Assembly (NCBI GenBank): GCA_963780185.1
Contig: CAWABA010000001.1
Coordinates: 32,001-96,000, forward strand
Direction: 5' to 3'
Length of the DNA: 64,000 bases
Source of the DNA: Candidatus Bathyarchaeota archaeon
Lineage (GTDB): Archaea; Thermoproteota; Bathyarchaeia; Bathyarchaeales; Bathycorpusculaceae
The notes beneath the pieces were generated by a model. It saw nothing but the letters and a program-made list of their open reading frames with translations. It did not search any database and was not told the DNA's origin. Position 1 is the stretch's first letter; each line of letters opens with the position of its first letter. A program made the translations under genes and the position numbers. Of the stretch, positions 38,337 to 61,568 are shown piece after piece.

Positions 38337-38514
38337 TTTTGAAATATTACAAAACTCCAAGCAGAACCAAACCCGATCCCCGCCTTTTCCAACCTAAACT
38401 CGCAAAAGAAACAAACCCCAAACCAAAAAAACAACCTAAAACAAGCCCCAAGCGGAAGCCACCTACCGAGGGAGGGGGTCTATTATTTACAACCAAAACC
38501 CGCCACAAAAATGG
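38337..38514 (+). repeat. Dispersed non-coding element, copy 1
   Basis: TTTTGAAATATTACAAAA ... CCGAGGGAGGGGGTCTATTATTTACAACCAAAA; homologous to 53045 and 61387. Confidence 0.9.
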
Positions 38515-38614
38515 AGTTCATCACTTAAACCGGCAAAGCCTCGCTTTTGGTCTATCTGCAAAACACATAATAGTTGGCGTAGCCGATTTGAATGATTATC
38601 GTCGGGGAAACAAC

Positions 38615-40084
38615 GTGAAGGCTCACGTAGTACTTGCAAATCCACCTTATCCAGAAGATGTGCCGCAAGCCGTCTTCATCCCGCTCGGCATCAGCTACCT
38701 GGTCGCGGTGCTTGAGCAAGACGGGTACGAAGTCGACGTGGTTGACTGCCAAGTTGCCAAACTCAGCCAGAAAGATTTGGAGGACAAGTTCAGAAGCCTC
38801 AAAGCCGACATCGTTGGTGCTACAGCTGCAACCGTCACTTACTTCCCCGCCCTGCAAGTCCTAAAAGCAGCCAAAGCCGCCCTGCCCAACTGCGTAACCA
38901 TGATTGGCGGACCACACGTCACGGTTTTGGACGAACGCACCTTCACAGACAGCTCAGACGTCGACATTGTGGTGCGGGGCGAAGGCGAACAAACTATGCT
39001 TGAGCTTGCACGCTTAGTATCCGACGGCAACCTGAAGGGCCTTGGCGAGGTTGCAGGCATCACATTCAAGCGGAACGGGCAAATCTTCCGCACCCCTGAC
39101 AGAACCTTCTTGGAAGATATTGATACGCTTCCTTACCCGGCGCACAAGCACTTTGACGTAAGCCGTTACCGAATCAACGGGAAACTTTACATGCCTATCA
39201 TCACCAGCCGCGGGTGCCCATTCAACTGCGCCTTCTGCTTGGCATCCAAAATGTGCGGCAAAGGCTTTAGGGCACGAAACCCCAAAAAAGTCGTCGACGA
39301 ACTTGAATGGCTAAGAGACACGTTTGGGGCAGGAGCCTTCGCTTTCTACGACGACACATTCACCTCCGACGTGCCGCGGGCAATCGCCATCTGCGACGAA
39401 ATGAAAGCAAGAGGATTCGACATGCCGTGGGATTGCCGAACGCGGGTAGACAAAGTCTCCAAGCCTCTGCTGGACAAGCTTAGGAGCACAAACTGCCAAC
39501 TCATCCATTTCGGCGTCGAGTCAGGCAGCCAACAAATGCTCAACCTCATGCGCAAAGGCACCACAGTTGAGCAGAACGCCGGCGCGATAAAGCTGGCTAA
39601 AGAATCAGACATCCTTGTCGCAATATCCCTTGTCATCGGCTACCCAACCGAAACACCTGAAATGCTCAAGCAAACCGCAGACTTCATCCGCAAAACCAAG
39701 CCTGACTACGTTTACATGTGCGAAGCCGTTCCGTACCCTGGCACTCTGCTTTACGATTACGTGAAGGAGTTGGGGTTGGAGTTTTCGGAAAACTGGAACC
39801 TGTACCATGAGCAAATGCAAGTCTTCAAAAACACTTTGCTGCCGCTTGAGAAGCTGGAGCAAACCAAAAAATCAGTCTATGACAGCATCTTCACGCCTAC
39901 GTATTACCTGCGGATGAGGCAGAGAGGAGATTTTCACAGTCAAATCATGGCTCGTATGGCGCTGAATCATCTTGTCTGGAAGTACAGGGCTACAAGATGG
40001 GCGTTTAGGCAACTGGGTAAAGTTAGACCAGTCAAGAAAAGCCCAGGCGGACACAGTACGCCAAGCAAAGACCAGCAAGACTAA
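38615..40084 (+). CDS. Cobalamin-binding radical SAM enzyme (class B / BchE-like)
   Basis: PLGISYL, GGPHVT, RGEGE, TSRGCPFNCAFC, GVESGS, PYPGT. Likely GTG start at 38615. Confidence 0.92.
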   Translation: MKAHVVLANPPYPEDVPQAVFIPLGISYLVAVLEQDGYEVDVVDCQVAKLSQKDLEDKFRSLKADIVGATAATVTYFPALQVLKAAKAALPNCVTMIGGPHVTVLDERTFTDSSDVDIVVRGEGEQTMLELARLVSDGNLKGLGEVAGITFKRNGQIFRTPDRTFLEDIDTLPYPAHKHFDVSRYRINGKLYMPIITSRGCPFNCAFCLASKMCGKGFRARNPKKVVDELEWLRDTFGAGAFAFYDDTFTSDVPRAIAICDEMKARGFDMPWDCRTRVDKVSKPLLDKLRSTNCQLIHFGVESGSQQMLNLMRKGTTVEQNAGAIKLAKESDILVAISLVIGYPTETPEMLKQTADFIRKTKPDYVYMCEAVPYPGTLLYDYVKELGLEFSENWNLYHEQMQVFKNTLLPLEKLEQTKKSVYDSIFTPTYYLRMRQRGDFHSQIMARMALNHLVWKYRATRWAFRQLGKVRPVKKSPGGHSTPSKDQQD

Positions 40085-40122
40085 AAAATCAGCGGCAGAG
40101 GCAAACAGCCAACTTTTGGCAT

Positions 40123-42762
40123 TTACTGTGGCGCTGTTGCAGCAGCCGATGTTTCTTGAGTTTTCTTTCTGTTTGCATAGCTTGCCCCAAAGAGTGCGAT
40201 GAGGGCGACGGCGGCGATAACGGCGACTACTATTACTATGTCGTGTCCCATGGCAACGTTGTCTGTCGACGCAGGGGCAGACGCTTGGGCGCTGAAGCCT
40301 TCGGAGAAGCAGTAAATGTTCCAGTCGTTGCATCCGATGTACAGCATGCCGTCAGCTATGGTTGGCGAGGACCAGCTGCTGGAGGGCGTGTAGCCAGTGG
40401 TGATTCTTTCGCCGTTTTTGGTTGTATCCAAGATGAGGATGTGGCGTTCGCTGGTTGCCAAATAGATTTTCCCGTCAGCGTAGGAAGGCGAAACGTAAAG
40501 TTCGTCGCCTGTGTAGGCGCTCCAAACCACGTGTCCGTTGGTTGCGTTGAGGCAAACTATGTTGAAGATGTCGAGGATGTAGAGGTTGCCGTCCACGTAA
40601 ATCGGGGAGGAAACGATGAATTCGGTGGCTCTGGTGTTGATGAAGCTCCATACAAGCTTGCCCGTCTGAGCGTTCACGGCGTAGTAAGCTCCGAAGTCAG
40701 AGGCTGCAAACACCATGCCTGCTGCAACTGAGGGAGAACCAAGCATCTCTGTGCCTCCGAGGAACGAGTGCAAATAAGGAATCGTGAAGTTCCACATAAC
40801 CTGCCCCGAAGCTGCGTCCAGTTTGAAGAGCATTCCGGTTGACGGCTGCTGTGCAGTGAAGTAGACGGCGCCATCCGAGAAGGCTGGTGAGCCCTCGATT
40901 GGTCCGCCCGCAGGAGTCTTCCAAACCACCGCGCCCGTGTCCGCGTTCAACGCGTATAGGTTGCCGTCTAAGGAGCCGATGTAAACCATGCCAGCCGAAA
41001 CCACGGGTGAGGAGGTCAGCATCAAGTTGGCGTATGTGTAATGCAGGTTGCTGCCGACGTAGGTGTGCCAGTTGAGTGCGCCGTGGTCAGCGCTTAAGCA
41101 GTAAACGTAGCCGTCGTCACTTTCAACGTAAACCAAACCGTTTACAACAGCAGGAGAATCTTCAATCGAGCCTCCGGTAGCAAACTTCCAGATGAGCCTT
41201 CCGCTCAACGCATCAAGGGCATAAACGTTCTTGTCCTGTGAACCCGCATAAACCACTCCGTTGACAAGGGACGGCGAAGAAATAACTGACCCGTCGGTTG
41301 TAAACTTCCATGCCACCGTAAGGTTCGAAGGACCCACAGAGGCGGTGGAAGAATGCGATGCGTCAGCCCTAAACATCGTCCAATTGCTAACAACTGAGGA
41401 TTCAATCGGGATCAGCTGGGGCGTCGGCGTCGCCGTGGCAGCTGGGGTGGGGGTCGGAGAACTGGAAGGCGTCGACACCGGAGTGCCGCCGGATCCTATC
41501 GCCCACAGTTCGTCGTTTGTTGAGTACTCTGTTCCTGATGTTGTGTCAACGGCGGAGGTCACTTGGCCTGGGATGATGTACAAGTTTCCGTACGCAACTA
41601 TGGCGGATTCCCTTGGAGCCAGCGCTTCAATTGGAAGCGTCCAGATGACGTTGCCGTTATAGGCGTTTAAGCACGCGAATTGGGAAATTTGTGCGGGACC
41701 ATTGTATGCGGCATGTTGGCCTGTGGTAAGGTAGATTTTTCCGTCTGCAACGGTGGGCATTCCTGGCCACATGAAGTCGGTGTCTGGGCTTCTGTATTTC
41801 CATTGTAGGGCGCCGGTTTTTTCGTTCAAAGCGTACAGGTACCCGTCTTTGTTCATTTCGTAAACGGTTCCGTAGGCGATGGATGGTCCCGTTGTGAAGT
41901 ATCCGTTGGGGTCGGATGGTGGCGTGTATGTCCACATGATTTTGCCGTCGGCAGCGTTGAAGCAGTACATGGTGTTGTCGTCTGTTCCACCTCTGAAGAA
42001 GAAGCCGTCAGAGTAGGCGCCGTCAAAAATCATCGGTCCCTTCGTAAGCGTGTCCCAAACGATTGCACCCGTCGAGGCATTAAGCGCCAACTGCTGGTTT
42101 TCAAAGGAGCCTGCGAAAACTAAGCCGTCGCCGACTGTTGTTCCGATGCCTGCTTGGCCTCCACCTGGAATGTAGGCTGTCCATGCCACGGTGGGTGGTT
42201 TTGATGGGTCAGCGAAGTTCCAGGCGATGATGTAGGAGTTGTCTTTTACGTAGAACATTTTTGTTTCGGGGCTGTAGACGTTGGAGGTGAAGATTCCTGT
42301 GTCAGCGCAGAACGAGGTGCTGGTCCAAAGGATTTTGCCTGTGGATGGGTCAAGACAGCTGCCTTCCACCACCAAGTGGGAAGGATCGATTTCGTAGGCT
42401 ATTGGCCACGTCTTATTGAGCGGAATTATGGTGCTCCACGCAATTTGCCCAGCTTGGTTTACGGCGACAAGGGAGGTGTTGGTTCCGACGAAGATTAGTC
42501 CGTCGAAGGCTGTTAGGTCCGGTTGTATGCCGGGTATATTGGCTTTCCAAAGTACGCTGGAAGTGCTGGGGGCTGGTCCCGCTGAGTAACGGGTAAATGC
42601 TTCGTTTCCTTGGAATTGTGGCCAGTCATACTGATTCAAATTTGAATTTGTGCTGTTGCTTGCCTGAGCTTTCGCATTGATCTGCAAAGTTGAAATTGAC
42701 GCGAAAAATGACGAAGCAACAAGTACTGTGAGAATAGCTATAACTAAGATTTTTTTGAGAAT
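40123..42762 (-). CDS. Surface protein with two PQQ-type beta-propellers and a C-terminal TM
   Basis: WPQFQG and WTMFRAD propeller starts, SSP..VY.GS.D repeats. The signal peptide extends in frame to ATT at 42762. Confidence 0.85.
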   Translation of the reverse strand: MLKKILVIAILTVLVASSFFASISTLQINAKAQASNSTNSNLNQYDWPQFQGNEAFTRYSAGPAPSTSSVLWKANIPGIQPDLTAFDGLIFVGTNTSLVAVNQAGQIAWSTIIPLNKTWPIAYEIDPSHLVVEGSCLDPSTGKILWTSTSFCADTGIFTSNVYSPETKMFYVKDNSYIIAWNFADPSKPPTVAWTAYIPGGGQAGIGTTVGDGLVFAGSFENQQLALNASTGAIVWDTLTKGPMIFDGAYSDGFFFRGGTDDNTMYCFNAADGKIMWTYTPPSDPNGYFTTGPSIAYGTVYEMNKDGYLYALNEKTGALQWKYRSPDTDFMWPGMPTVADGKIYLTTGQHAAYNGPAQISQFACLNAYNGNVIWTLPIEALAPRESAIVAYGNLYIIPGQVTSAVDTTSGTEYSTNDELWAIGSGGTPVSTPSSSPTPTPAATATPTPQLIPIESSVVSNWTMFRADASHSSTASVGPSNLTVAWKFTTDGSVISSPSLVNGVVYAGSQDKNVYALDALSGRLIWKFATGGSIEDSPAVVNGLVYVESDDGYVYCLSADHGALNWHTYVGSNLHYTYANLMLTSSPVVSAGMVYIGSLDGNLYALNADTGAVVWKTPAGGPIEGSPAFSDGAVYFTAQQPSTGMLFKLDAASGQVMWNFTIPYLHSFLGGTEMLGSPSVAAGMVFAASDFGAYYAVNAQTGKLVWSFINTRATEFIVSSPIYVDGNLYILDIFNIVCLNATNGHVVWSAYTGDELYVSPSYADGKIYLATSERHILILDTTKNGERITTGYTPSSSWSSPTIADGMLYIGCNDWNIYCFSEGFSAQASAPASTDNVAMGHDIVIVVAVIAAVALIALFGASYANRKKTQETSAAATAPQ

Positions 42763-42992
42763 TGATAGTACCCCCTAATACCAAACATTTGCACATCTCT
42801 AATTAAGAGATTGACGCCTTGCCACCAGTCACTTATTGACAGTTGATTTCACTATAAACCTTACGGAAACCCCCTGCTTGCGCCTCGTGGCATAAAAAAA
42901 GCAGGAAAATGCTGTTTTGGCGAAAAATGAAAACAAGTGAGCTACCGCACAATCTTTTTTAGGTTGAAAGGAAACCTTAACATAAATATTGA

Positions 42993-44090
42993 ATGGGCGA
43001 GAGGGTGGATTTTGGCTTGACGAATAAAGGTCCTTTACTTATGACTTCTTGGAGGGCAACAGGCGCATGTAACGCCCGCTGCAAATACTGCAACGTCGAC
43101 GCCAACGGCTCCAAAGCCCCCAGGGAACTCACAACTCAAGAAGCCTTCCACCTTGTGGATGAAGTGGCAAAGTTCGGCGTCCGCTGGTTCGGCATCAAAG
43201 GCGGCGAACCACTCACACGCCCAGACATCTTTGAAATCACCAAATACGCCAAAAGCAAAGGCCTAAACGTTTGCCTGCTCACCAACGGCGCCTTCGTCGA
43301 CGGCTCCATCTACGACAACCTCGTCAGAGACCAAATCTGGACCAGCGTCAGCATCGACGGACCTGAAGAAATCAACGATCAACTCCGCGGCAAAGGCAGC
43401 TACCGCAAGGCGTTGGCCGCCATCGAGAAACTCAGCAAGGGCAAAATCCTCAACGGCTTAGCCTGCGCCATAACCACCATAAACTACCAGCATCTTGACC
43501 ATGTCTGCGAGTTGGCGGAGAAGTACCACGCGAACTTCGTCTGGTTCAACCATCTTGTCCCCAGCGGGAGAGCCAAGGAAATGGCTGACCTTACCCCCTC
43601 GCCTGAACAGTATGAGTGGGTGCTCAACCACATTTGGGACCTCACCGAAAAATACGAGGGCAAATTCGAAATCCACGTTCACTGCCCCCACTTTGCCCGC
43701 GTCGTCAAAATGCGCGGCATCCCAAACTTCGATGAATGGTACGAGCACAAGTTCCACGGCAAATGCACCTACTTCGCTTTCGGCGGCTACGTTTCCGTCA
43801 CGGAGAACGGCGACCTCATCCCATGCTTCTACACGGACCTCACACCCACCGAGCACCAGCGGCTGGGCAACATCCGAAACAAATCGTTGCAGGATGCATG
43901 GAAAGATGTCAAAGCCTCACCGTTCTACAGCAGCTTCCAAGACCGCAACCTACTCAAGGGCAAATGCGGAGTATGCGAGTACCGTGAAATCTGCGGAGGA
44001 TGCAGAAACCGCGCGTACGCTTACACAGGCGACATGTACGCTGAGGACCCTGCATGCGTTTACATCCCTGAAAGCCTGCGCAAGAAGTAG
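42993..44090 (+). CDS. Radical SAM/SPASM protein (AhbC/D-NirJ/PqqE-like)
   Basis: CNARCKYC, GGEPL, SPASM cysteines GKCGVCEYREICGGCRNRA..DPAC. Confidence 0.9.
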   Translation: MGERVDFGLTNKGPLLMTSWRATGACNARCKYCNVDANGSKAPRELTTQEAFHLVDEVAKFGVRWFGIKGGEPLTRPDIFEITKYAKSKGLNVCLLTNGAFVDGSIYDNLVRDQIWTSVSIDGPEEINDQLRGKGSYRKALAAIEKLSKGKILNGLACAITTINYQHLDHVCELAEKYHANFVWFNHLVPSGRAKEMADLTPSPEQYEWVLNHIWDLTEKYEGKFEIHVHCPHFARVVKMRGIPNFDEWYEHKFHGKCTYFAFGGYVSVTENGDLIPCFYTDLTPTEHQRLGNIRNKSLQDAWKDVKASPFYSSFQDRNLLKGKCGVCEYREICGGCRNRAYAYTGDMYAEDPACVYIPESLRKK

Positions 44091-44159
44091 CCCCGACTTT
44101 TCCATCTTTTAAGAGAAAACCTCTTTATTCCTTAAGACCCGAGTTAGATAAGAGCAGAA

Positions 44160-46437
44160 ATGAAAGCAGCCGCCTTTGTGTTCTGACTGTGCTGTTTTTG
44201 GCTTCAGCCATTTTGGCAAGCGTTGCCTCCGCAGAACAGCCCAGCGGCAGGTGCGTGGCCAATGTTTCACGGTGACCTCAACGCATTCGGGCGCTTCAAA
44301 TTCTCAGGCGTCCGAAGACGAACCAGACTCTGTGGAAATTTAATACGGGCGGTCAAGTGGATTCGCCCACTGTTGTCGGCGGCGTGGTTTACGTTGGCTC
44401 ATTTGACCACAAAATCTACGCTTTTAACGCTTCCAACGGCAGCGGAATTGTGGGGTTCACTTACGGGCGGAATCGTGATTTCTCGTCCCGCGGTTGTAGA
44501 CGGCGTGGTTTACGTGGGTTCAGAGGACCATAACCTCTACGCCTTGGACGCTCGAAACGGCGTTCAACTGTGGAATTACACCGCGGGATACTATGTTGAT
44601 TGCGACCCCGCTGTCGCCAACGGGGTAGTTTACTTTGGCTCCGAAGACCACAACGTCTACGCCGTCAACGCCGCAACAGGCGCTTACATATGGAACTACA
44701 CGACTGGAAACAAAATCATGATGTCCTCCCCCACAGTTAGCAACGGAATAGTTTACATCGGCTCAGAAGACAACAAAATCTACGCCCTAAACGCATCCAA
44801 CGGCGCCTTAATTTGGAGTTACACAACAGGCGGCCAAGTGGCTTCTTCTCCAGCCGTCAGCAACGGCGTAGTGTACGTGGGCTCACGACGATGGCACCCT
44901 TTACGCGTTAAATGCTGACAGCGGCAAATCAATCTGGAACTTCACAACTGGAGCAGCCATCTACTCTTCCCCCTGCGTAGGCAACGGATTAGTCTACGTG
45001 GGTTCAACAGACACCAAAGTTTACGCATTAAATGCCGCAAACGGAAAATCCGTTTGGAAATTCGCAACGGGCGCGGCAGTAGCTTCTTCTCCAACCTTTG
45101 ACGGCGGCGTGGTTTACGTCGGGTCAGAAAACAGCATAGTTTACGCCTTTGACGCTTCAAACGGCGGTTTGCTTGTGGAACTACACGACTGGGGACATGG
45201 TTATTTCCCATCCTGCAGTGGCTCAAGGCGTGGTTTATGTTGGCGGTTGGGACGGCAAACTTTACGCCTTAAACGCTGCAGACGGCAAGCTATGTTTGGA
45301 GTTTTGCGACTGGCGGCGAGATTGATTCTTCCCCGACCGTGTCTGGCGGCTTAGTGTATGTTGGTTCCCATGACGGCACAGTGTACGCTTTGAATGCTTC
45401 CACGGGAATGGTTGGCTACAACTTGGAGATGCATAACAACGTTGTTTGGAGCTACACGACCGAGGGCATGATTATGTTTTCTTCGCCGCGGTTGCCGACG
45501 GCAAAGTTTACGTGGGCTCCTACGACGACAACGTTTACGCTTTGAACGCTTTGACAGGCGCTTTGATTTGGAGCTTCAAAACGGGTGACTCAGTGGTTTC
45601 TTCGCCTGCAGTGGAAAACGGCGTGGTCTATGTTGGCTCGGAAGACCATAAAATCTACGCTTTAAACGCCTCCGACGGCAAGCTTGATATGGCAGTTCAC
45701 CACTGGCGGCCAGATAACGGTGTCTTCTCCCGCAGTCTACGACGGCAAAGTCTACATTGGCTCAAACGACGAAAACGTCTACTGCCTTAAACGCTTCAAA
45801 CGGAACCCTCATGTGGAAGTACGCGACAGACGGCTACGTGGTTTCTTCCCCTGCCGTGGCAAACGGGCATGGTTTACGTGGGCTCATACGACCACAAAAT
45901 TTACGCTTTAAACGCCTTAAGCGGCAAGCTTGTTTGGAAATATGCCACAGGCGGAGGCGTTGCATCGTCGCCTGCATTAGCCGACGGCTTAGTCTACGTT
46001 GGCTCGGCAGATGACAAGGTTTATGCTTTGGATGCATCCGACGGCAAAGCTCATGTGGAGCTACATAACGGGCGGGCAAGTTGCGTCTTCGCCTGCTGTT
46101 TCAAACGGAATTGTTTACGTCGGCTCATACGACGGCAACGTTTATGCTCTTAACGCCAAAACAGGCGCATAAATCTGGAGCTACGCAACTGGAGAGGAAT
46201 GGTGGTTTCTTCGCCAGCCATGGCCGACAACGCCGTTTACGTTGGCTCATACAACAACATGCTCTATGCCTTCGGCTCACTCATTCAACCACAACATCGG
46301 TTCAAACGGCATACGCAGCTGAACAATTTGCTGTCGTTGCAGTGGTTTTAGCGGCGATTGTCACTGCCGCAACGCTGGTTGCTACCAGATTTCTCAAGAA
46401 AAAAGGAAAAAAATTCACAGCGTCATGTTTTGAGTGA
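44160..46437 (+). pseudogene. PQQ-repeat beta-propeller surface protein (~16 repeats), multiply frameshifted
   Basis: SSPAV..GVVYVGS.D..YALNA..G..W repeats at a ~120-bp period, spread over all three frames; signal peptide at the 5' end, TM + basic tail at the 3' end. Confidence 0.8.
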
Positions 46438-46451
46438 GAATGCATGAAGGT

Positions 46452-47195: not shown

Positions 47196-47382
47196 AATCT
47201 TCCCCGCAAAAAGCGTCAACCCCACCTTATAAAAACGTAACGGTGGAAGGGTATTTTTAAATAAAAATACTGAAATTCTCAATATTAAATTGGGTTTAAA
47301 AGAAAATGAACGTTAGAACGTTGAGACATTGAGACTAAACTTAGCTTCATAATCTTAAGGAATCTTGGCATTTTTCAGTCGT

Positions 47383-47985
47383 TCAGTCTTTTTGTTCCTT
47401 TTTTGAATCGCAGTTCCAATCAAACCGCTTCTCAAAATTAGACCGTAAATTCTTATCATCTTTAAGCTGTTTAACATAAGTCTCAAAATGCTTTTTTAAT
47501 TCCAAAACAAGCGTATGAGGGTTAACAATAAGTCTTTCCCCTTCTTCAGTTGGAGATATAGGTGGGAAACCTTCACCCAAAAGCATAATGTCGCTTTCAG
47601 TTAAGCCATGATGGTAAAGACCGCACCTAACATTATAATACATCTTTTCAGGAATCCAAGGATACTGTTTACATAATTCTGGGAAAACCATCTTTAATCC
47701 TTCAGCAAAATATTTGCGTGCTCCGCCAATCTTACAAGATCCATCTCTGTACTTGGCAATCATTTCAAAATAACTCATGAGTATGTCTAAAGTGGCATAA
47801 CCTGAGCCTACAATCTGCACTATTATAATTGTTCCATTATTTATTTTTACACCGTTAATAACCATATCCGCAATATCCAATTGCCATCCAGTAACTCTTT
47901 CATAAAAGATTTGTATTTTATTATCAAGTGTAAGCGCCTCTGGGAAATCGCTCCTTTTATGAAACGGTGTTATCATGTAATCCAA
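47383..47985 (-). CDS. Hypothetical protein with HEPN-like RxxxxH motif
   Basis: YYNVRCGLYHHG. Confidence 0.6.
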   Translation of the reverse strand: MDYMITPFHKRSDFPEALTLDNKIQIFYERVTGWQLDIADMVINGVKINNGTIIIVQIVGSGYATLDILMSYFEMIAKYRDGSCKIGGARKYFAEGLKMVFPELCKQYPWIPEKMYYNVRCGLYHHGLTESDIMLLGEGFPPISPTEEGERLIVNPHTLVLELKKHFETYVKQLKDDKNLRSNFEKRFDWNCDSKKEQKD

Positions 47986-48091
47986 TATTATCCCATAGCA
48001 CCAAATTCATTGTTTGCAGATTTAAGACTTATCTCTAAGTTTCTAACCCTTGATTTAATCAATTGATTAATAGGAATTCGTGGAATGATTT

Positions 48092-48385
48092 TTAGGCATT
48101 TAAGATTCTTGCAACCTCTTCTGCTGGGATTGTTCTCACTGTCTCGTTTGTGATTGCGTTTTTGACATATACCAACCCATAAAGTGAAATATGCTTAGAT
48201 TGAGACTTTTGAAGACGGAAACCTGTTGGTAGATTCAATCTTTTTCTAAGTTCTTTCAAGTTAGGGTCAGTTGAGCCACGTTTACTTTTGGTGAAAAGGG
48301 TTATGTGCTTCTTTGCGGCGACTGCCGCTAATCTAAGTCTACCATCTGGCGGAAGTTTTATTTCACAGGTAGGCTCTTTTTTCAC
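48092..48385 (-). CDS. Small basic hypothetical protein with FlaG-like C-terminus
   Basis: VYVKNAITNETVRTIPAEEVARIL. Confidence 0.5.
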   Translation of the reverse strand: MKKEPTCEIKLPPDGRLRLAAVAAKKHITLFTKSKRGSTDPNLKELRKRLNLPTGFRLQKSQSKHISLYGLVYVKNAITNETVRTIPAEEVARILNA

Positions 48386-48437
48386 ACCAAATCCCTTCTG
48401 ATAATTTCATTATTGTATGCGATTCAGTTTTAAGCTT

Positions 48438-48842
48438 TTACTGCTTGATTATATTACCGAAATTGAGGTTTTTGGGAAATGTTATTTTTATGCCTTCTTT
48501 TTGGTTGAAATCAAACCTTATAGAATTTACAATACTACAAAAAAACTCTAAGTCTCTAACGATGTAAATCCAGTCATTTGAGAGCTCTTTGGTTAGGGTG
48601 TGGTATAGATTCATTTTATTTTGCAATGTTATTGAGAATTTAACCACTTTATCCAAGTCATAATTCTTAGAATCAGAATAAGAAGCGATTGTATTAACCA
48701 ACTGCAAAATAGTTTGAATATTTTCCTTTATCACCAAAGAATTCTTTGGGTCATTCTCTAACCTGAGAATTTGCAGAGTTGCCCCACATATCAACTCTTT
48801 ATCCTTAACAAGCATCAAGCGTTCTGTTTCGGAAATCTGCAT
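48438..48842 (-). CDS. Hypothetical protein
   Basis: 134-aa ORF with its own promoter-like motif 26 bp upstream. Confidence 0.6.
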   Translation of the reverse strand: MQISETERLMLVKDKELICGATLQILRLENDPKNSLVIKENIQTILQLVNTIASYSDSKNYDLDKVVKFSITLQNKMNLYHTLTKELSNDWIYIVRDLEFFCSIVNSIRFDFNQKEGIKITFPKNLNFGNIIKQ

Positions 48843-48878
48843 AGCGGTATCTTTACAGTTTCAACCTTTTAGTTTTTG

Positions 48879-49613
48879 CTATTTCTTATTTTTGTCTTTT
48901 AATCGGTTTCCCTCTTCATGCAGTTGCATTAGCTTTTTCAGCGTTTGAGTCTTAAAATCAGGCTCAATGATTTCGGCAAAATTGACTATTAATAGGTTTA
49001 TTAACGAAAATTCAACATGTGGATAAAATGCAATTCTTGCAATAGATGGTTTGAATTCTGGTTTATGAGCCACATGAAGGCTACTATTTGAAAGGTCAAC
49101 TGCCATTAAAGAACTAATTGATTTAAAATCAGAATGAACGTAACCACAAAGTATTCTATACGCTTCTAAAAATTGTTCGTAATTTCCAATAGCGTTAAGT
49201 TCTTTCTTTATGGTATGAATTTTTAGTTCTCCCTTAAGCCATTTTAAGGCGTTCTCATTGGCTATTTGTTTGTCTTCACATAATACAACATACATTATAA
49301 CGCATAAATTTTCAAACAAGCTTCTTTGAATTATTTCTGTGTCATAATAATAACCTTTCATGTCTAAATCAAAACAAGCTTTCAAAGTCATTATTGCCCT
49401 TGAACTTAACATTAAAACAACCGAGTCTCTATAATCAAAAATTATTTCTCGGGTTATCGATTGATTACCTATATGCTCATTTAAACTATACAATAACTCG
49501 TAAGTCTCAATATGATTTCTTATTTGGTCTCCAAACAATGCCTTAGATTTTTCAATATTTTCTTTCTCTGCTTCAGATATTTCCCCAAAAGGTGTTGGGC
49601 TTTTGCTCAGCAT
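48879..49613 (-). CDS. Hypothetical protein, DUF5677/HEPN-like
   Basis: RSLFE and YRILCGYVH motifs. Confidence 0.6.
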   Translation of the reverse strand: MLSKSPTPFGEISEAEKENIEKSKALFGDQIRNHIETYELLYSLNEHIGNQSITREIIFDYRDSVVLMLSSRAIMTLKACFDLDMKGYYYDTEIIQRSLFENLCVIMYVVLCEDKQIANENALKWLKGELKIHTIKKELNAIGNYEQFLEAYRILCGYVHSDFKSISSLMAVDLSNSSLHVAHKPEFKPSIARIAFYPHVEFSLINLLIVNFAEIIEPDFKTQTLKKLMQLHEEGNRLKDKNKK

Positions 49614-50044
49614 GCTCTCAGTATTCTATCACTTTGCATTTAGTTTTTGCTATCAAGAAAGAAACTTGGCTTAATCTTATGGAGATGAGAAAGACCTAAC
49701 TCAGAAACATCTATCTTTCCTTTAACCACTTAACCAACCTATGAGATTCTCGTTTATTGTCTGATTGTTCAAGGGGCGATCTATCTTCGGCACTATGCTT
49801 GAAGCCAACAATGAGATATTTCATGCGTTATAGAATATTCTATAGCTTCTTTAGCTAATATTGCCCGATAGGCGGGTGAAGCATATACGGAAAGCATCTA
49901 CAGTGAAAAGTGGGTTAACGGTAAGCGGTTGAAGATGCTCAACTTTCTTTCTTCAAGCTATCTTCCGCCTTTAGCAAAAGGTTAAAATCCCAAAAATAAT
50001 ATGCTTAAGAACTGTAACCTCGGCAGAATGACTAATCATTCTAC

Positions 50045-51469: not shown

Positions 51470-51562
51470 GATGTTTACGGCTCCACGAATTACCTCAAGA
51501 AAACACAAGATGCTTTTTTTCAATCCTAAAGCGACAGCAGCGATTTTTACGTAATCTTTATT

Positions 51563-52905
51563 ATGGTATCGAGCCGTTTTAAAGGTAAATTCGAGGGAAC
51601 TTGGATGACAAAAGCCTCTGCGCTTAAAAAAAGCACATCAGAAGTTTACGAGTCACGGGAAAATTGGCCGCCCTACACTTACAGGGATTACCCAGACATC
51701 AAACCTGAAACCTACAAAGCCTTCATGGAGTTCCTAAACACCGAGAACAAGTCGGGCAGATTGATGGAGCTTCAACCGTGGATTTCTGTTTGCGACTCAA
51801 AATGCGCGTTTTGTTATTTCCCAACCACCGCGACAAGCAAAGTGAAGATTGAGCCATACCTTGCCTTGCTCAAGAAAGAACTTGAAATGTACGCTAAAAC
51901 CAAGTATGTGAAGACAAGCTGTTTTGACGAAATCGTTTTGGGCGGTGGAACCCCCAGCGTTTTGGCTGCCGAGCAGATGATTGACCTTATCGATTTCTGC
52001 AAGGCGAACTTCAACATAAACAAAGAATATTTCATCAAAGTAACAGGTTCCTCAAAGACTCTTGCGCTTCCAAAAATCGACAAACTCGCCGAATACGGCG
52101 TTTACCAGATGGATATGGGCGCGCAAACCTTCGACGACAAACTCCGAAAATGCTTTGCTTGCCCGATTCTGCGGCAGACGTTGAAAAAGCCATTCGCCAT
52201 GCCCGGAAACTGGGTTTATGCGTCTGCGTTGACCTAATGTATAATCTTCCTGGGCAAACAATGGAAAGCTGGATAGACACACTCAAAAAAACAATTGAGC
52301 TTGACGTGGAAGTCGACGCATACTCGCTGCATGTTGATCCCGGCACGACTCTGGAAAAAATGATTAAAACAGGCGTTTCGCCGCCTACAGGAGACGCCGA
52401 ATACGAGAAGCAAATGTACCTGACAGCCTACAACATGCTTACCGAAGCAGGCTACAAAGCCGTTGGGCATGACCGTTTCAGCCGCGTTGAGTGGCACATG
52501 CGTGAAAACTGCCTTAACGGTTGGCCATGGGGTGGCATATTGACCACGGGTGCAGGCTGCTTTATGGGGTATCTGCAGAAGTTCAGTTACTCCAACATCG
52601 AAAACATCAACGACTACATGGCAGACGGTCAAAGCGGGGAAACTGCCGATAAGCAGACTTTCGAATCCACAAATGAGGACATGATGAGGCGAACGATGAC
52701 TCGGCTGTACCTGCGGTTGCCAGTGAGCAAGAAAGAGTTCATGGAGAAATTCGGAACCACACCCGAAAAGGTCTTTCCGAAACAGCTTCAGAAACTCAAG
52801 GACAAGGGACTTATCGAAATCGACGACAAAGAAGTCCGAATAACGAAGCTGGGCGAAATCTGGAAAGGCAACATAGCTTGGGAATTTGCACCTAACCAAA
52901 CCTAA
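51563..52905 (+). CDS. HemN/HemW-like radical SAM enzyme, frameshift in an A-run near 52150
   Basis: CDSKCAFC, GGGTPS, GAQTFDD, DLMYNLPGQT, GAG; HemN-type C-terminal helix region. Confidence 0.85.
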
Positions 52906-53044
52906 TTTTTCCCTTGCCCGTTTTTCTCCGTTTATTTCCTTTTAATCAATTTTTTTAAAGCCATAAACCCGAAAAAGTACCCCAAAACGATTGCCGCTTT
53001 GCGCGAGATGTTGTTTGATGATGCCATCCGGGTTTCCAGCAAAC

Positions 53045-53223
53045 TTTTGTAATATTACAAAACTTCAAGCGGAAACAATGGTTTTCCCTGTTTCTTTAGC
53101 TCGCAAAATCTTAAAGGATTTAAGCCTAAACCAAAAAATCAACCCAAAACAAGCCCTAAGCGGAACCCGCCTACCGAGGGAGGGGGTCTAGTATTTACAA
53201 CCAAAAACCACCACAAAAATGGA
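53045..53223 (+). repeat. Dispersed non-coding element, copy 2
   Basis: TTTTGTAATATTACAAAA ... CCGAGGGAGGGGGTCTAGTATTTACAACCAAAA. Confidence 0.9.
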
Positions 53224-55104: not shown

Positions 55105-55142
55105 AACTTTAAACAAATAAAAAATAAAGGAAGGAGTTTTTT

Positions 55143-56054: not shown

Positions 56055-56072
56055 GTTTCCTCATCTGAAGGA

Positions 56073-56501: not shown

Positions 56502-56621
56502 TTAAACACCTTTTTTCCTTTGTAATTACTCTGGGCTTTTTATACTCGAGTTTCATATTTAAGCTTTGACTAAAAAATTCATCAAAAATAAAAGAATACC
56601 ACGGAAAAGAGAGGGGCGCAA

Positions 56622-58932
56622 ATGTTCAAGGCAAACAAAAAATACGTTCTGCTTCTGTTAATTTTCGTCTTCTCATTCATTTACCGTGTTGTCCTAATGT
56701 TTTGGCAAAGCTTTCCTCCGGGCGCTGACATAGGATTACACGCCAGCGTCATCAACTCAATTACGGGGTCAGGCAACACTAATTTCCTCCACGATTACTT
56801 CCAGATGGGGGGAGGTCAATCCTTGACCTTTCCAGGGTACCATATTTTCACTTCAGCTATAATACTCATGACTGGCTTAACCGATTATGTTGCGCAGGCT
56901 CTAATTGTTGCGTTGTTTTCTTCGCTTATTGTCTTAGCGGCTTTCCTTGTAACTCGGGCGGTTTGGTCCGAATCAGCGGCTTTTGTGGTTGCCTTTTTAG
57001 TGGCAGTCTCACGTTTCGATATTGAAATGCTGATGTGGGCAGGCTACCCTAACGTTATAACGTTGCTTTTGATCCCTGTAACGTTCTACCTCTTTCTTAG
57101 AAGAGAAAGGTTCTCGTTGGCGCCCTTTCTTGTTTCAGGTTCGATTTTGGTCGGATCGATTTTTTTGACCCATTCTTTGAGCGCTGCAGTTTTTATCGGT
57201 ATAACCGCTATTACGGTGTTTTTTGCGTTGATTGCTCCCAAAACTTTTGGAACAACGCGCAAAAATGTTGCGAGCTGGTTGCTTCCAGTTCTCGGTGGTG
57301 CACTCCTTGTTTCACCATTTCTTGCAAGTGCGATTCCTGCTTACTTGAGCGCTAACTCGTCATTTTCCGCGGTTAACGTTATTGATCAAGCCGTAATCGC
57401 GACAAGAGTCCTTCCCATGGACGAAGTTTTGGCTCTCTTCGCCTGCCTTCTACCTCTTCTTTTATTATCCAAGAAGTATAACCGCCGATTCATTTCGCTT
57501 CCAACTTTCCTGATAATCATGTGGCTTTTCATTCCGCTATTGCTGACACAAGGTTACTTGTTTGGGCTTATAGTCGATTACAATCGTTTTCTTTACTTCC
57601 TGGTTTTACCCGTAATCATACTTTTCGCCATGATGATTGATCACGGTTCAGCATATTTTGCACACCTAACAGTAAACTATCAAAATCTTGCAAACCAGAT
57701 GCCGAAAACAACTCGAGCCGCAAACAAGTGGGCATCACGAATCTCCTCTGGCATAACCCGTAAGCGAGTTTACTCTATCTTCGCGTTAGGCTTCATTTTT
57801 ATCTTTCTCGTAACACTTCCCATTTTTCTAACACCTTGGCAAGGGGTCGAGATTCAAAGCTTCTATCAAACCATGAATAAGCCTGGCTACCAAGCCATTC
57901 AATGGGCCAAGCAAAACACAGCACCAGGCTCAATCTTTGTTTCTGACGCCCTCTATGGCTGGTGGCTTGGCGGTTTTGCAGAACGGCCAACCTTGAGTGC
58001 GGTCCAACCTCAGTATTTGACGGTTGACAGCGAGTTGGCGCCTGCAACTTTTGCTTCTAACTTGCTCGATACAGATTACATGATTGATAACGGCTACATT
58101 CAAGTTCGAGAAGACGGCGGGTTTGTGGGGAGACATAACCCTGAATTTCTAGCGGACCTCAATTGGTCACCTTTCCCCTTCTCCTTCTTCCAGTTTAACG
58201 ATAGCGAGATTACTTTGCTCTCACAGAATGCTGGATCTATGCAGTCCACAGACATAACTCAAATCCCGGTAGCCAACATGCAATTAGTCGGCGAGCAAAG
58301 CCACAGCCCATCAATTGTTGTCAACAAAGCAAACAACGACTTCAGCTACTCGGAAATCTTAACCATCTCACAAGGCGTAGCCTTCGCTAACATGACCATA
58401 GTAATCCAAAGCGACAATCCCAACATTTCTTTAGATTGGATCAACTTCATAATGAATTCACAAGGACAATTTCTACAGCCATCCAATAATACAGTCGCGA
58501 TGCTAGATACAGGCATGAAAGAGGTCGGTCAACTTGTTTTCATTGGCAATCAGCCGCAAGTGTCCGCGTTTAACACGCAAAGTCCCTGCATTGCACAACT
58601 CTCCTATAATCTGCAAGGCAAATCATATGCAGAAATACAGATTCTAGTGGGCATCTACCAAGTTACGGAAAATGATGTAGTAAACCCATACTAGCCTCAA
58701 CCAAACCTTGCTGGACAATGTTGAGACCGCGCAAAAACCAACTGACAATTTGCCCTTAACTACGTTTGATTATAGCGCGGCGTTGCAGGCTAACTCGGTT
58801 TCTTATGTCGCAAACCGCGATTTTGGAGTGAACGCGAAATTTGCTGATGACCCCCAATTTAGCCTCGTATTTATAAACAATGAAGTTGCCATCTTTAAAG
58901 TCAGGGCGAACATCAATCAGACTGGAGGATAA
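56622..58932 (+). CDS. Multi-TM GT-C-like membrane protein, frameshift near 58693
   Basis: GADIGLH, FPGYH, ~12 TMs, AIQWAKQNT periplasmic domain; the C-terminal fragment aligns with the end of the paralogue 58941..61340. Confidence 0.7.
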
Positions 58933-58940
58933 CTAGCTTC

Positions 58941-61340
58941 TTGATGGGTAGATTGGCAAACGAGAGACAGCTTGAAGTTGTGTTTATCGCGATTTTCTCT
59001 GTGCTTGTTTTAGTCATCTTCTACACGGTCATATCGATGAATGGTGTCGTGCTCGGAAATGACCCTGCTGTTCATCTGGTAAAAGCACAGATTTTCCTCA
59101 ATACAGGCAAAATACCATTGGAAAACTTAGGTTGGACGCCTCCTCTTTACGAGCTTTTGCTTGCCACACTTATTTCTTTCAGCGGTGCAACTGGAATCGG
59201 ACAGATGATTTTTTTAGTGAAAGCTCTCGCAGCAGTGGTTGATTGGCTGCTTTTTATGGCTGTTTACTTGATGGCCAGTAAGTTTTTTGGCAAGAAAGTT
59301 GGGGCCGTAAGTGCTGTTTTGCTGCTGATGTGTTTTCCTGTGTTTGAGGCTAACCAGTTTGGCGGCTACACCACAGTACTTGGTATAGCTTACATTCTTT
59401 TTATGCTTCTTTATTTAACGAAAGCTATAGCGGATTTCGGTTTCCTCGTGGTTACCTTCATCGCGGCTTTTGCCCTTGTTTTGTCCCATCAACTTGCCGC
59501 TTTCCTGGCGGTTATGATGCTGCCTCCGATCCTGATCTATATGGTGATAAAGTCTAGAGGCGCCTCCCTTAAGGTTGTATTAGCCTTGATAGTGGGCGGA
59601 GGAATCGCATTCCTTTATTACTTCAAAGCTATGTTCGGATACATTGGTCTTGTTGTGGAATACGTGTTTTTTGCAGTGAAAACGTATGCTTTCCAGATCC
59701 CATCCGTCAGCTTCAAAGCGTTCATGGTCAATTTTGGGTTCATTTTCTTTCTTGCATTAGCTGGTATTGGCATTTCATTCTTTTTCCTAAGGAAAGAGAA
59801 AAAACTGTTTTCTTACGCAATATTGATGATTAGTTTCTTTGTTCCGCTTTTCTTCGCTCAGTCTTATCTTTTTGGTTTCTTCATGCCTTTCCAATGGTTT
59901 GTCTATTACTTAACGCCTGCAATGGCTATATTCGCGGCTGTTTCCGTCGTGTTTATTCAAGAAAAGTTTCTTTCGTTTTATTTGAAGAACAGAACGAACC
60001 TCTTGGTGCATGAGGGGTCTCCTCAATTTGGCACAATTGGAGCTAAGGAAGGACAAAAGGTTGCAAAAGCTTTTAGGCAACGTCTGATTGGTCCTATCCG
60101 AAGAAATTGGCTAAAGATACTCACCGCTTCTTTAGTCTTATTGATGTGTCTAGTGCTCGTTTTTCGCTCCGACATGGTTTACGGTAAAATGATCCAAGCA
60201 AGCGTTTACTACTCAACAACTGATGTAAAAGCGCTTGACGCAGGCATCTGGCTAAAACAGAACTATTCGAATAACGCAACGGTTGTTGACACTGACATTC
60301 CTGGTTTTTGGTTTTCAGCGTTTTCAGGCAAAACCGTTATTGCGCAGACTTCAGCCACGGTTGAGACAAATGACGTCGCGTGGTCAGTTCTGAGTTTATC
60401 ATACGACATTCAGGATTCTCAAAACCTGTTTCGGGCCTACGAGGCTTATGGGAACACTTTCCTAGAAAGTTACATTTCCATCAACGGGATCTGGTATTGC
60501 GTGTCATCGTCATCTACAGCAGGAGACTTTATCTCTTTCACTGAAAACGGGAAGAACTACGATTTCTCTTTCTCAAACTTAACAAGGGACATTTACTTTG
60601 ACCAAAATACATACCCAGCACAGCTTGAGTTGCGGTTCTCAAACGACTATGTAGCGTTAACTGAGACAATGCTTGTTCAAAACAACACTTACCCAACCGA
60701 CTTTTCTTGGGCTGTGACCCCCCTAAATGGCGACATTACAAACGTAACGCTTTACCTAACCAACTATTTCAACCTCCAAAATACCTTTTTCGATAAGGTC
60801 CAAATTCCTCAGTTCATGGATTGGGTTAATCCTTGGAATGTAACTTCAAAAATGTCTAACGGAAATCTCTGGACAGTTGTCAATTTCCCAAATACCGCCT
60901 CGGCTAACTACGTTGGCATCTATGACGATAAAAACCAAATTGCTTACGCTTACAACTTCACCGACCGACCTGACTGGGGAAACATTGGTGCTTTGGGCGG
61001 GGGAAAAATTGATGCTGTACGATTCCAGTATCAATTCAACGAAATCAACGCTGACCAGATGGTTAAACGACAGTATCAAGTTCTCTGCCTTTCGAAAAGC
61101 AATTTTACAGCTTTGCAGGAAAGCAATATTGAAAGCCTCTTTAGCTTCAAATCCGACCCGTTCTCGGTCTACACCAGAAACTACAAAGACTACATAACCA
61201 GCAACAACATCCAATTCATAGTTTACGACCGAAACCAACTTGACCCCAACATAATCCACCTGAAATTCCTGCAGCTAATATACTCAAACAACCGATATGT
61301 AATCTTCAAGATATTGAACAACTACAACCAAACCCAATGA
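58941..61340 (+). CDS. Multi-TM GT-C-like membrane protein, paralogue of 56622
   Basis: GNDPAVH, WTPPLY, LSHQL, WLKQN, LIYSNNRYVIFKI. Confidence 0.75.
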   Translation: MMGRLANERQLEVVFIAIFSVLVLVIFYTVISMNGVVLGNDPAVHLVKAQIFLNTGKIPLENLGWTPPLYELLLATLISFSGATGIGQMIFLVKALAAVVDWLLFMAVYLMASKFFGKKVGAVSAVLLLMCFPVFEANQFGGYTTVLGIAYILFMLLYLTKAIADFGFLVVTFIAAFALVLSHQLAAFLAVMMLPPILIYMVIKSRGASLKVVLALIVGGGIAFLYYFKAMFGYIGLVVEYVFFAVKTYAFQIPSVSFKAFMVNFGFIFFLALAGIGISFFFLRKEKKLFSYAILMISFFVPLFFAQSYLFGFFMPFQWFVYYLTPAMAIFAAVSVVFIQEKFLSFYLKNRTNLLVHEGSPQFGTIGAKEGQKVAKAFRQRLIGPIRRNWLKILTASLVLLMCLVLVFRSDMVYGKMIQASVYYSTTDVKALDAGIWLKQNYSNNATVVDTDIPGFWFSAFSGKTVIAQTSATVETNDVAWSVLSLSYDIQDSQNLFRAYEAYGNTFLESYISINGIWYCVSSSSTAGDFISFTENGKNYDFSFSNLTRDIYFDQNTYPAQLELRFSNDYVALTETMLVQNNTYPTDFSWAVTPLNGDITNVTLYLTNYFNLQNTFFDKVQIPQFMDWVNPWNVTSKMSNGNLWTVVNFPNTASANYVGIYDDKNQIAYAYNFTDRPDWGNIGALGGGKIDAVRFQYQFNEINADQMVKRQYQVLCLSKSNFTALQESNIESLFSFKSDPFSVYTRNYKDYITSNNIQFIVYDRNQLDPNIIHLKFLQLIYSNNRYVIFKILNNYNQTQ

Positions 61341-61386
61341 GAAAAAACCGAGCCAACGGAGCAACTTCGCAACTCCTTTGGATTCG

Positions 61387-61568
61387 CCATATTTGTGTTG
61401 GGTTTTGTGATTGTAAAATAATAGACCCCCTCCCTCGGTCGGTGGCTTCTGCTTGGGGCTTGTTTTGGGTTGATTTTTTGGTTTGGGGCTTGATTTTGTT
61501 GTGGGTTTAGGTTGGGTTGGGCTGGGATGGGTGGGTTTTCTGTTTGGGGTTTTGTAATATTACAAAAC
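61387..61568 (-). repeat. Dispersed non-coding element, copy 3 (inverted)
   Basis: Perfect 20-bp palindrome GTTTTGTAATATTACAAAAC at 61549-61568; reverse-complemented G-box GACCCCCTCCCTCGG at 61424-61438. Confidence 0.9.

What the first reader, a model, noticed from the sequence alone, without database searches (positions are those of the whole stretch)
38337..61568. Three-copy ~180-bp non-coding element with an invariant 129-bp palindrome-to-G-box spacing, always beside radical SAM genes
Seen: copies at 38337-38514 (+), 53045-53223 (+) and 61387-61568 (-). Each starts with the palindrome TTTTGTAATATTACAAAA (one mismatch in copy 1), continues through an A/C-rich strand-biased spacer, and ends in CCGAGGGAGGGGGTCTA(T/G)TATTT(T)ACAA..ACAAA(A/T)ATGG. 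The palindrome start lies exactly 129 bp from CCGAG in all three (38337/38466, 53045/53174, 61567/61438), even though the middle ~66 bp of copy 2 is strongly diverged. The shared reading frame has stops in copies 1 and 2 and no common start, so a conserved peptide is unlikely. Two copies precede B12-rSAM genes and one follows a SPASM rSAM. Inference: this is a fixed-geometry DNA module, such as a two-protein binding or recombination site, a non-autonomous mobile element or an ncRNA gene. It may shuffle or co-regulate rSAM cassettes: copies 1 and 2 are direct repeats around ~14.7 kb, and copy 3 is inverted.
Basis: partly seen in the sequence, partly recalled or inferred. Interest (0 to 1): 0.82.

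Follow-up and report, generated by a model that had tools for sequence, protein, structure and literature searches.

The report
Operator-capturing mosaic repeats in Bathyarchaeia
The three repeats are members of a genome-wide family of short non-coding DNA modules in a group of uncultured archaea, apparently made by joining the binding site of one regulator to the upstream tail of another gene family, and they sit at many of the points where these genomes have been rearranged.

Summary
The three copies and their 129-bp spacing are real, but they are 3 of 21 copies in this genome. Only 1 of the 18 outside the window has a neighbour with the radical-SAM cysteine motif. Each copy is modular: palindrome P, 64-bp spacer, core M, and G-box/inverted-repeat unit H. 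P lies upstream of the winged-helix gene 37715-38284 in 10 of 10 close orthologue loci, sometimes alone, so it is probably that protein's operator. M lies behind a 10-bp-periodic repeat array upstream of a tandem-AbrB/RIFT-barrel gene in 31 of 32 loci. P-M-H is therefore a gene-less fusion. P-to-M spacing is 80-84 bp in 57 of 57 copies from six genomes. Orthologous sites often carry a different head on the same M core. Elements lie at 11 of 18 sampled synteny breaks and at all three junctions of two nested inversions starting in this window. I found no conserved RNA fold, target-site duplication or shared transposase/recombinase. Best reading: a mosaic repeat family spreading mainly by ectopic recombination; the mover is unidentified. 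The scan noted this stretch before (e1-6520620).

The parts
38337..38514 (+). P-M-H element, copy 1: the copy still attached to its probable parent gene; left junction of the larger inversion
38337..38354 (.). P: 18-bp palindrome, probable operator of the wHTH protein; follows a short A/T box that remains upstream of most copies
38419..38444 (+). M core of copy 1 (82 bp after P start); same core as upstream of tandem-AbrB/RIFT genes
38466..38514 (+). G-box + H unit of copy 1: two arms 14 nt apart; hybrid of a left arm of one unit type and a right arm of another
37715..38284 (-). Gene for P0001, 189 aa: N-terminal winged helix plus a beta-rich domain of no assigned family; starts 53 bp from P, divergent
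52972..52988 (+). Degenerate upstream M core (M0) 73 bp before copy 2
53045..53223 (+). P-M-H element, copy 2 (P 53045-53062, M 53127-53152, G-box/H 53174-53223); member of a recently copied subfamily; junction of the smaller inversion
61387..61567 (-). P-M-H element, copy 3 (P 61550-61567, M 61460-61485, G-box/H 61387-61438); between convergent genes at a site that is empty in G080, G092 and G062

Best explanation
The element is a gene-less mosaic of two control regions. Its head P is the operator of a winged-helix protein (P0001) whose gene originally faced a small toxin-like ORF. Its tail M-H comes from the upstream region of a scattered tandem-AbrB/RIFT-barrel gene family. A deletion or recombination joined P to M-H next to the wHTH gene in one clade. 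The 180-bp unit was then copied around the genome, mostly into sites already holding an M-family element, by ectopic recombination or gene conversion on the shared M and H sequence, and less often into empty intergenic sites. The same shared sequence lets pairs of elements recombine and invert or translocate the DNA between them. Spacing is probably kept because proteins bind P, M and H on the double helix. SHOWN: copy numbers, P-wHTH and M-AbrB linkage, head swapping at orthologous sites, two empty sites plus copy 3's, enrichment at breakpoints. INFERRED: that the proteins bind these sites, the order of events, recombination as the copying route, and the reason for the fixed spacing.
For: P is 45-80 bp upstream of 10 of 10 close P0001 orthologue loci; in 6 of the 10 it is not followed directly by M. 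A collection-wide pattern scan found one more Bathyarchaeota record with the exact palindrome just upstream of a P0001-like gene (L349). The distant paralogue has its own related palindrome in 6 of 6 loci. 31 of 32 tandem-AbrB loci have M within 78-191 bp upstream, behind a repeat array (period 10 the best lag in nearly all); the miss is cut by a contig end, and the opposite-strand control is 0 of 32. H-like tails follow M in several of these loci. Intermediate state: G004, G068 and G071 have P, then two small ORFs, then M about 890 bp later; G091, G092, G114 and G000 have P fused to M at 82 bp. All 8 G000 P sites that were syntenic in the G080 DNA held carry an M-family element there, only 1 with P. 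H hybrids run one way, 13 against 0, as expected from collapse of tandem units. 11 of 18 G000/G080 synteny breaks have an element, against 272 of 5092 gene ends. All three junctions of the local inversions carry elements in G080 and G000. No candidate mobilising enzyme family was common to the element-rich genomes.
Against: Recombination on shared sequence does not explain insertion into empty sites (G114 L171 and L094; copy 3). Homology between nearest copies mostly stops sharply at the 5' edge of P and at an H right arm, which looks like a transposon with defined ends. G062 has 10 exact palindromes and G080 has 2, yet no close P0001 orthologue was found in either (93% and 82% complete), so the wHTH may not be needed to keep P. 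The shared blocks are short (25-60 bp) for homologous recombination (own knowledge). 7 of 18 breaks have no element. Elements could also have inserted at breaks after the fact. No binding was tested.
Confidence: 0.5

Rival explanations
1. Non-autonomous mobile element moved in trans by a dedicated enzyme not identified here. P and H would be the recognised ends. One candidate is the capsid-less terminase pair whose upstream repeat (Q) is another head of the same mosaic family.
For: Sharp homology limits at P and H. Empty sites exist. Lineage-specific bursts: P counts 20, 19, 10, 4, 2; H in 12 of 120 genomes. Q-type repeats lie upstream of the small gene before a terminase-large-subunit gene in G000, G092 (by eye), G062, G068, G071, G091 and G114 (pattern hits in 5 of 31 loci). 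One viral-collection contig has an AbrB-family gene with its array near such a terminase gene (L301).
Against: No target-site duplication at the empty sites examined and no terminal inverted repeat beyond about 6 bp. In 5-genome tests: Y1 transposase 1 of 5, RT 0 of 5, IS110 0 of 5, serine resolvase 0 of 5, DDE_Tnp_1 1 of 5, tyrosine integrase 4 of 5 but none in G114. IS91 is in 13 of 120 genomes and in none of the six P-M-H genomes. The small terminase-linked gene is in 30 of 120 genomes, most without H, and was not found in H-bearing G081, G117 or G040.
Confidence: 0.25
2. Host-maintained regulatory or chromosome-organising module: P0001 (or the M/H binder) uses the copies as a regulon or as dispersed anchoring sites, and selection keeps them.
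For: P stays nearly perfect (43 of the 62 scored palindromes are one of two exact forms) while the spacer drifts to 62% identity (shuffled 51%) at fixed length. Ordinary orthologous intergenic regions at 70-80% identity keep length within 2 bp in only 10 of 28 cases. A symmetric G-to-T change of P appears in G000 and G114, whose wHTH proteins also share residue changes in the helix-turn-helix (two related genomes only).
Against: Neighbours are unrelated and orientation is mixed. P sites are mostly not shared between close species. P is amplified where no close wHTH was found (G062).
Confidence: 0.15
3. A family of small non-coding RNA genes.
For: An A/T box precedes P in most copies; composition is strand-biased; the arms of P and H change symmetrically.
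Against: No Rfam match in the window. The consensus fold of 21 copies is -3.96 kcal/mol with only the palindrome hairpin well kept. Single window segments fold no better than shuffles (z from -1.1 to +1.5). All three window H units are hybrids whose arms do not pair. P would lie at or before the start site.
Confidence: 0.07
4. A device that shuffles or co-regulates radical SAM cassettes.
For: All three window copies adjoin radical SAM genes, and local inversions did move such genes.
Against: 1 of 18 copies outside the window has a CxxxCxxC neighbour. The window is rich in these genes. 8 of 8 orthologues of the B12-rSAM behind copy 1 in the first relatives sample lack the element.
Confidence: 0.02

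Closest known systems
Bacterial interspersed mosaic repeats: BIME/REP clusters and pneumococcal BOX elements (PMC3184786, passages read)
   Same: Dispersed, intergenic, modular, non-coding; lineage-specific copy numbers; described as protein-binding sites and associated with recombination.
   Different: A/C-rich and largely unstructured rather than G+C-rich stem-loops; no Y1 transposase in 4 of 5 genomes tested; the modules trace to control regions of identifiable DNA-binding genes; heads are swapped at orthologous sites; archaeal.
MITEs (PMC3184786, passages read)
   Same: Under 400 bp, non-coding, many copies, some empty sites in relatives.
   Different: No terminal inverted repeats of note, no target-site duplication seen, no partner transposase found.
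MraZ and its promoter boxes (PMC12957436, abstract and results section 6 read); PhS018, PDB 2GLW
   Same: The M-linked gene family has two internal AbrB-like repeats (hhalign 89.8%). Its model matches 2GLW (TM 0.74, E 2.9e-4) and, weakly, MraZ. Its upstream arrays have the same 10-bp period as MraZ boxes.
   Different: Up to 15 scattered paralogues per genome, each with its own repeat sequence, no dcw cluster and no conserved neighbour gene. This is the source of the tail, not the element itself.
Archaeal integron cassette arrays (10.1101/2022.02.06.479319, passages read)
   Same: In G012, G118, G122 and G107, M-bearing fragments lie in toxin-antitoxin-rich arrays beside a separate repeated hairpin-like site.
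   Different: That site occurs 2 times in G000 against 2 in the control; the P-M-H copies carry no cassette gene. I did not test whether the site is an attC.

Membership tests
MITE | Terminal inverted repeats | tested here: not met
   Alignment of 21 copies: the left end is a self-contained palindrome and the right end an H arm; at most about 6 bp of complementarity, and only in some copies.
MITE | Target-site duplication | tested here: inconclusive
   None seen at G114 L171 or L094, or at copy 3. The empty alleles come from other species and 25-40 bp appear replaced, so a short duplication could have eroded.
MITE | Partner transposase with matching ends | tested here: inconclusive
   No family common to the element-rich genomes among PF01797, PF02371, PF04986, PF01609, PF07282; other IS families not searched; genomes 82-98% complete.
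MITE | Short, non-coding, multi-copy, polymorphic for presence | tested here: met
REP/BIME | G+C-rich short stem-loop units | tested here: not met
   The spacer is 33% A and 37% C; window G-box/H segments fold worse than shuffles.
REP/BIME | Mosaic clusters of a few modules in intergenic DNA | tested here: met
   108 clusters of P, M, H, Q modules in G000.
REP/BIME | Associated Y1 (RAYT-type) transposase (feature from the search listing of PMC2817692 and recall) | tested here: not met
   PF01797 in 0 of G000, G114, G062, G003; 1 hit in G080.
Structured ncRNA family | Conserved secondary structure with covariation; Rfam match | tested here: not met
   only the palindrome hairpin, 1 of 13 pairs with a two-sided change.
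Structured ncRNA family | Discrete transcript | not testable with these tools
   No RNA holder listed.
Tyrosine-recombinase site (att/dif/loxP-like) for the H unit | Inverted arms around a short spacer with a fixed crossover point, and a cognate recombinase | tested here: inconclusive
   Arms are 14 nt apart in 34 of 34 matched TAC-GTA units, but hybrids switch at more than one position; no PF00589 hit in G114.
Operator of P0001 (autoregulated wHTH module) | Palindrome conserved upstream of orthologues and varying with paralogues | tested here: met
   10 of 10 close loci; a different, related palindrome at 6 of 6 distant-paralogue loci; L349.
Operator of P0001 (autoregulated wHTH module) | Direct, specific binding | not testable with these tools
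   Needs EMSA or footprinting.

The most novel reading that the evidence does not exclude
These Bathyarchaeia carry an undescribed genome-shuffling system without a classical transposase. A common core (M-H) picks up the binding arrays of several mobile-type DNA-binding proteins (tandem-AbrB paralogues, the wHTH P0001, the small gene before an orphan terminase) as exchangeable heads. Protein-bound heads target cutting or strand exchange at the core, possibly by the capsid-less terminase. This would spread the modules, swap heads between sites and reorder the chromosome at some 100 built-in joints.
Probability: 0.15. Interest if true: 0.88.

Novelty: new variant of a known kind. Interest (0 to 1): 0.64.

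Why it matters
It gives a traceable origin for a prokaryotic dispersed repeat: an operator and a promoter tail that lost their genes and multiplied. It identifies a likely main source of gene-order change in a widespread uncultured archaeal group. It also yields directly testable protein-DNA pairs: P0001 with an 18-bp palindrome, and dozens of 92-aa RIFT-barrel paralogues each beside its own 10-bp repeat array, a natural series for studying recognition by this fold. If a dedicated enzyme moves the modules, it is not among the usual families searched. Practically, the repeats create false ORFs (e.g. window 38339-40084 and 61322-61591) and probably break assemblies.

Tried and rejected
rSAM-specific association: rejected. 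Conserved peptide: no frame is open in more than 30 of 57 copies, P-to-M lengths are not held to multiples of three, and there is no common start. ncRNA fold: not found; no tRNA. No RNA holder listed; laying two low-depth DNA contig sets gave nothing usable on the junctions. IS91 as mover, prompted by one IS91-like gene 313 bp from an M in G111: rejected. Y1, RT, IS110, resolvase, TnpB, DDE_Tnp_1, tyrosine integrase: none common to the element-rich genomes; the TnpB-family hits were 25-residue zinc-ribbon pieces. The 428-aa ORF beside an AbrB gene in G102 is an AAA_14 protein, not an integrase. P0001's C-terminal domain as a tandem AbrB: not supported (hhalign 0.2-0.4%); fold searches of the whole model covered residues 3-81 only. 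A fixed 157-bp M-to-M minicircle: rejected, distances scatter widely (22 pairs, 97-303 bp, most 144-183). A 10.5-bp A-tract period in the spacer: not the strongest period. My early reading of the heads as 11-bp repeats was wrong for the AbrB arrays (period 10). A periodic array upstream of the terminase-linked small gene as a family trait: 0 of 31 loci passed my threshold, and Q is limited to one clade. Exact M pattern in the viral collection: 0 hits. P0001 in genome contigs by peptide patterns: none confirmed. Two look-ups in the scan's notes returned nothing. A DNA-profile search across genomes was not available, so cross-genome counts rest on patterns and undercount diverged copies.
Full report
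1. Observation. The window is G000:C1:32001-96000. Similar tools name the carriers of this element as Bathyarchaeia: all 21 of 54 collection hits that had M behind the palindrome. BLASTN, nhmmer and pattern scans of the 2.75-Mb assembly show a genome-wide family. The palindrome P occurs 22 times (reversed-genome control 2), the core M 76 times (control 1; 92 by a weight matrix, control 0), G-box/H units 74 times (control 3) and a module Q 39 times (control 0), in 108 clusters. 21 of the 22 palindromes head a full P-M-H element. Neighbours are unrelated genes in mixed orientation. 4 of 21 have a CxxxCxxC neighbour, only 1 of them outside the window (p=0.59 against 48 of 1943 ORFs).

2. Anatomy. 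P is an 18-bp palindrome with two main forms that differ symmetrically (24 and 19 of the 62 palindromes scored). The other 5 palindromes had no M in range: one further G000 site, one G062 site, and one each in G012, G016 and G066. The 64-bp spacer has drifted to 62% mean identity (shuffled 51%), yet 1552 of 1596 pairs differ by at most 2 bp. Orthologous intergenic regions of G000 and G080 at 70-80% identity do so in 10 of 28 cases. Those regions are longer and the element copies are related, so this is suggestive only. H is a ~58-bp unit with two arms 14 nt apart, present singly or in tandem. Of 62 pattern hits in G000, 34 and 14 are two matched arm types and 13 are hybrids, all in one direction; the remaining hit is one of those hybrids read backwards. 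The three window copies are hybrids. I found no Rfam or tRNA match, no consensus RNA fold beyond the palindrome and no frame open in more than 30 of 57 copies.

3. Origin of P. With one mismatch allowed, P occurs in 14 of 120 genomes of the genus: 20, 19, 10, 4 and 2 times in G000, G114, G062, G092 and G080, and once in nine others. P0001 (37715-38284) has matches in 18 of 120 genomes. At all 10 loci with a full-length close orthologue (48-100% identity), P or a symmetric variant lies 45-80 bp upstream. In G004, G068, G071, G058, G103 and a second G092 locus, P is followed by a 93-94-aa ORF (truncated in G103) of no Pfam family. I call it toxin-like only from size and context. In G004 a DUF2283 gene follows, and in G004, G068 and G071 M comes about 890 bp after P. 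In G091, G092, G114 and G000, P is fused to M at 82 bp. A distant paralogue (33%) has a different but related palindrome at 6 of 6 loci. One further Bathyarchaeota record has the exact palindrome before a P0001-like gene (L349). The N-terminal ~75 residues model as a winged helix. The C-terminal domain is unassigned. Against the link: no close orthologue was found in G062 or G080, which carry P-M-H.

4. Origin of M-H. M (two mismatches allowed) is in 66 of 120 genomes, up to 58 copies. Loci from low-copy genomes led to a family of ~92-aa proteins with two AbrB-like repeats. Its model (pLDDT 92) matches PhS018/2GLW at TM 0.74 and MraZ weakly, and the Atlas's nearest clusters are unnamed Bathyarchaeota proteins. 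The family is in 72 of 120 genomes, up to 15 copies. By my tally: both 56, M only 10, family only 16, neither 38; kin are not independent. I examined 32 loci: the 30 returned plus two more from G000. 31 have M 78-191 bp upstream on the opposite strand, behind a direct-repeat array whose sequence differs between paralogues and whose best lag is 10; the opposite-strand control is 0 of 32. MraZ binds boxes with the same period upstream of its own gene (PMC12957436, section 6). H-like tails follow M at several loci. In other families of the class (17 of 251 genomes) the arrays, a degenerate M and in some cases the G-box persist. No neighbour gene is conserved. H in its present form is in 12 of 120 genomes. 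So M-H is the far end of this gene's upstream region, and P-M-H is that tail with a foreign operator in place of the gene and its array. In G000 the three family members carry three of the other head types seen in gene-less copies.

5. Behaviour. Against about 840 kb of G080 plus 31 small loci (roughly 40% of that genome), 8 of 21 G000 P sites were syntenic. All 8 hold an M-family element in G080 and only 1 has P. The other 13 were breaks or fell outside the DNA held. Of 20 G114 P sites, 8 were syntenic in G000: 4 shared, 2 with another head and 2 empty. The clean empty site shows a 372-bp gain with about 25 bp replaced and no duplication. Copy 3's site is empty in G080, G092 and G062 and holds a different M-H insertion in G091. 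Homology between nearest paralogues mostly ends at P's 5' edge and at an H right arm (two rows there ran to the limit of the test and were ignored). In 800 kb of G080 there were 20 synteny breaks against G000. I dropped 2 at contig ends; 11 of the other 18 have an element in the G080 gap or at a G000 end, against 272 of 5092 gene ends and 22 (G080) or 16 (G000) of 137 within-block junctions. The p of about 0.001 uses a background that I assumed (0.25, or 30 of 137), and paired breakpoints are not independent. Locally, G080 has the order X-e1-B-e2'-C'-e3'-amidohydrolase, with an element at each junction, and G092 and G062 share this gene order. G000 has X-copy1-C-copy2-B-copy4'-amidohydrolase. 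Two nested inversions, copy 1 with copy 4 and copy 2 with copy 4, convert one into the other. Copy 4 is at C1:98009-98184.

6. Mechanism. I favour recombination-driven spread of an operator-tail fusion (0.5). Heads are exchanged where M or H already exist, tandem H units collapse in one direction, and element pairs invert DNA. A dedicated mover (0.25) would better explain sharp ends and empty-site insertions, but none of eight enzyme families searched is common to the element-rich genomes. These assemblies are 82-98% complete and other families were not searched. Host-selected binding modules (0.15), an ncRNA (0.07) and an rSAM device (0.02) follow. Binding, order of events and copying route are inferred, not shown.

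7. Relation to known systems. It works like BIME/BOX-type mosaic repeats (PMC3184786, passages) but fails the stem-loop and Y1 tests, and it fails the terminal-repeat test for MITEs. Five full-text searches (listings and abstract starts only) returned no description of such repeats in Bathyarchaeia; the library lacks most subscription papers. The archaeal integron preprint has no 'Bathyarch' in its main text (passages); its supplementary tables, which I could not see, may list arrays like those. Names such as RAYT, dif and loxP, and the role of terminases at packaging sites, are recalled and come from no call.

8. Verdict. The feature is real and larger than reported, with a different meaning. 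It is a new variant of prokaryotic mosaic repeats whose parts can be traced to the control regions of specific DNA-binding genes and which marks rearrangement joints. Interest 0.64. The scan's earlier first-reader note on this stretch (e1-6520620) also counted more than three copies.

Noticed in passing
G000:C5:4345-4623, C4:13014-13292, C9:202010-202414; loci L233-L261: Family of ~92-aa tandem-AbrB/RIFT-barrel proteins without a Pfam family, in 72 of 120 genomes of the genus, each beside its own 10-bp-periodic repeat array and the M core; no enzyme neighbour. Deserves its own study.
   Followed up: partly
L262 (G012:C1:1-16000), L263, L264, L269, L270, L271: Toxin-antitoxin-rich arrays with duplicated cassettes, M-bearing fragments and a repeated ~55-bp imperfect hairpin site that resembles an integron cassette site; not tested as attC.
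   Followed up: partly
G000:C6:655452-657199, C6:377410-378804, C5:118610-120049, C5:145035-146443: Four terminase-large-subunit-like genes (two confirmed by Pfam). The first follows a small gene whose upstream repeat array and first codons are scattered as gene-less Q modules.
   Followed up: partly
L265:4903-12151 (G102:C9): A D5-type primase-helicase element and an AAA_14 gene lie between two direct 433-bp copies of tail-M-array-AbrB gene.
   Followed up: partly
G000, e.g. C1:198553, C4:10553, C6:308989: S-type family: about 25 or more copies of a different repeat-array head, M and a two-palindrome tail; no cognate gene found.
   Followed up: partly
G000, e.g. C6:517762, C6:738929, C9:92501: T-type family: about 14 copies of an 11-bp-periodic array ending in a short palindrome, without M; one lies beside a paralogue of the terminase-linked small gene (C6:740612).
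   Followed up: partly
G080 loci L103, L114, L116, L120; G062 L085: A further palindromic head (R) on M-H, often between two M cores; cognate gene not sought.
   Followed up: no
window 44223-46300 (+): PQQ-repeat gene broken into many short ORFs by frameshifts (repeat spacing 120-123 bp); could be a pseudogene or assembly error.
   Followed up: no
window 51563-52905 (+): HemN-like radical SAM gene split into two overlapping ORFs.
   Followed up: no
window 42993-44090 (+) and 61630-62751 (-): Two paralogous SPASM radical SAM genes in inverted orientation (128-bp arms, 72%).
   Followed up: no
window 113-151, 2604-2642, 47253-47291: Three copies of a 39-bp A/T-rich upstream motif (repeat family D15).
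   Followed up: no
window 47245-49930 and 32762-36265: Segments absent from G080 at the syntenic place (DUF5677 and small ORFs; a large PQQ-repeat gene).
   Followed up: no
G000:C13:3045-4709: CRISPR-like array; an M core lies about 160 bp from its end (C13:4866).
   Followed up: no
P0049: A 566-aa protein in which a P0001-family region precedes an FtsZ/tubulin domain; may be a fusion or a gene-calling artefact.
   Followed up: no
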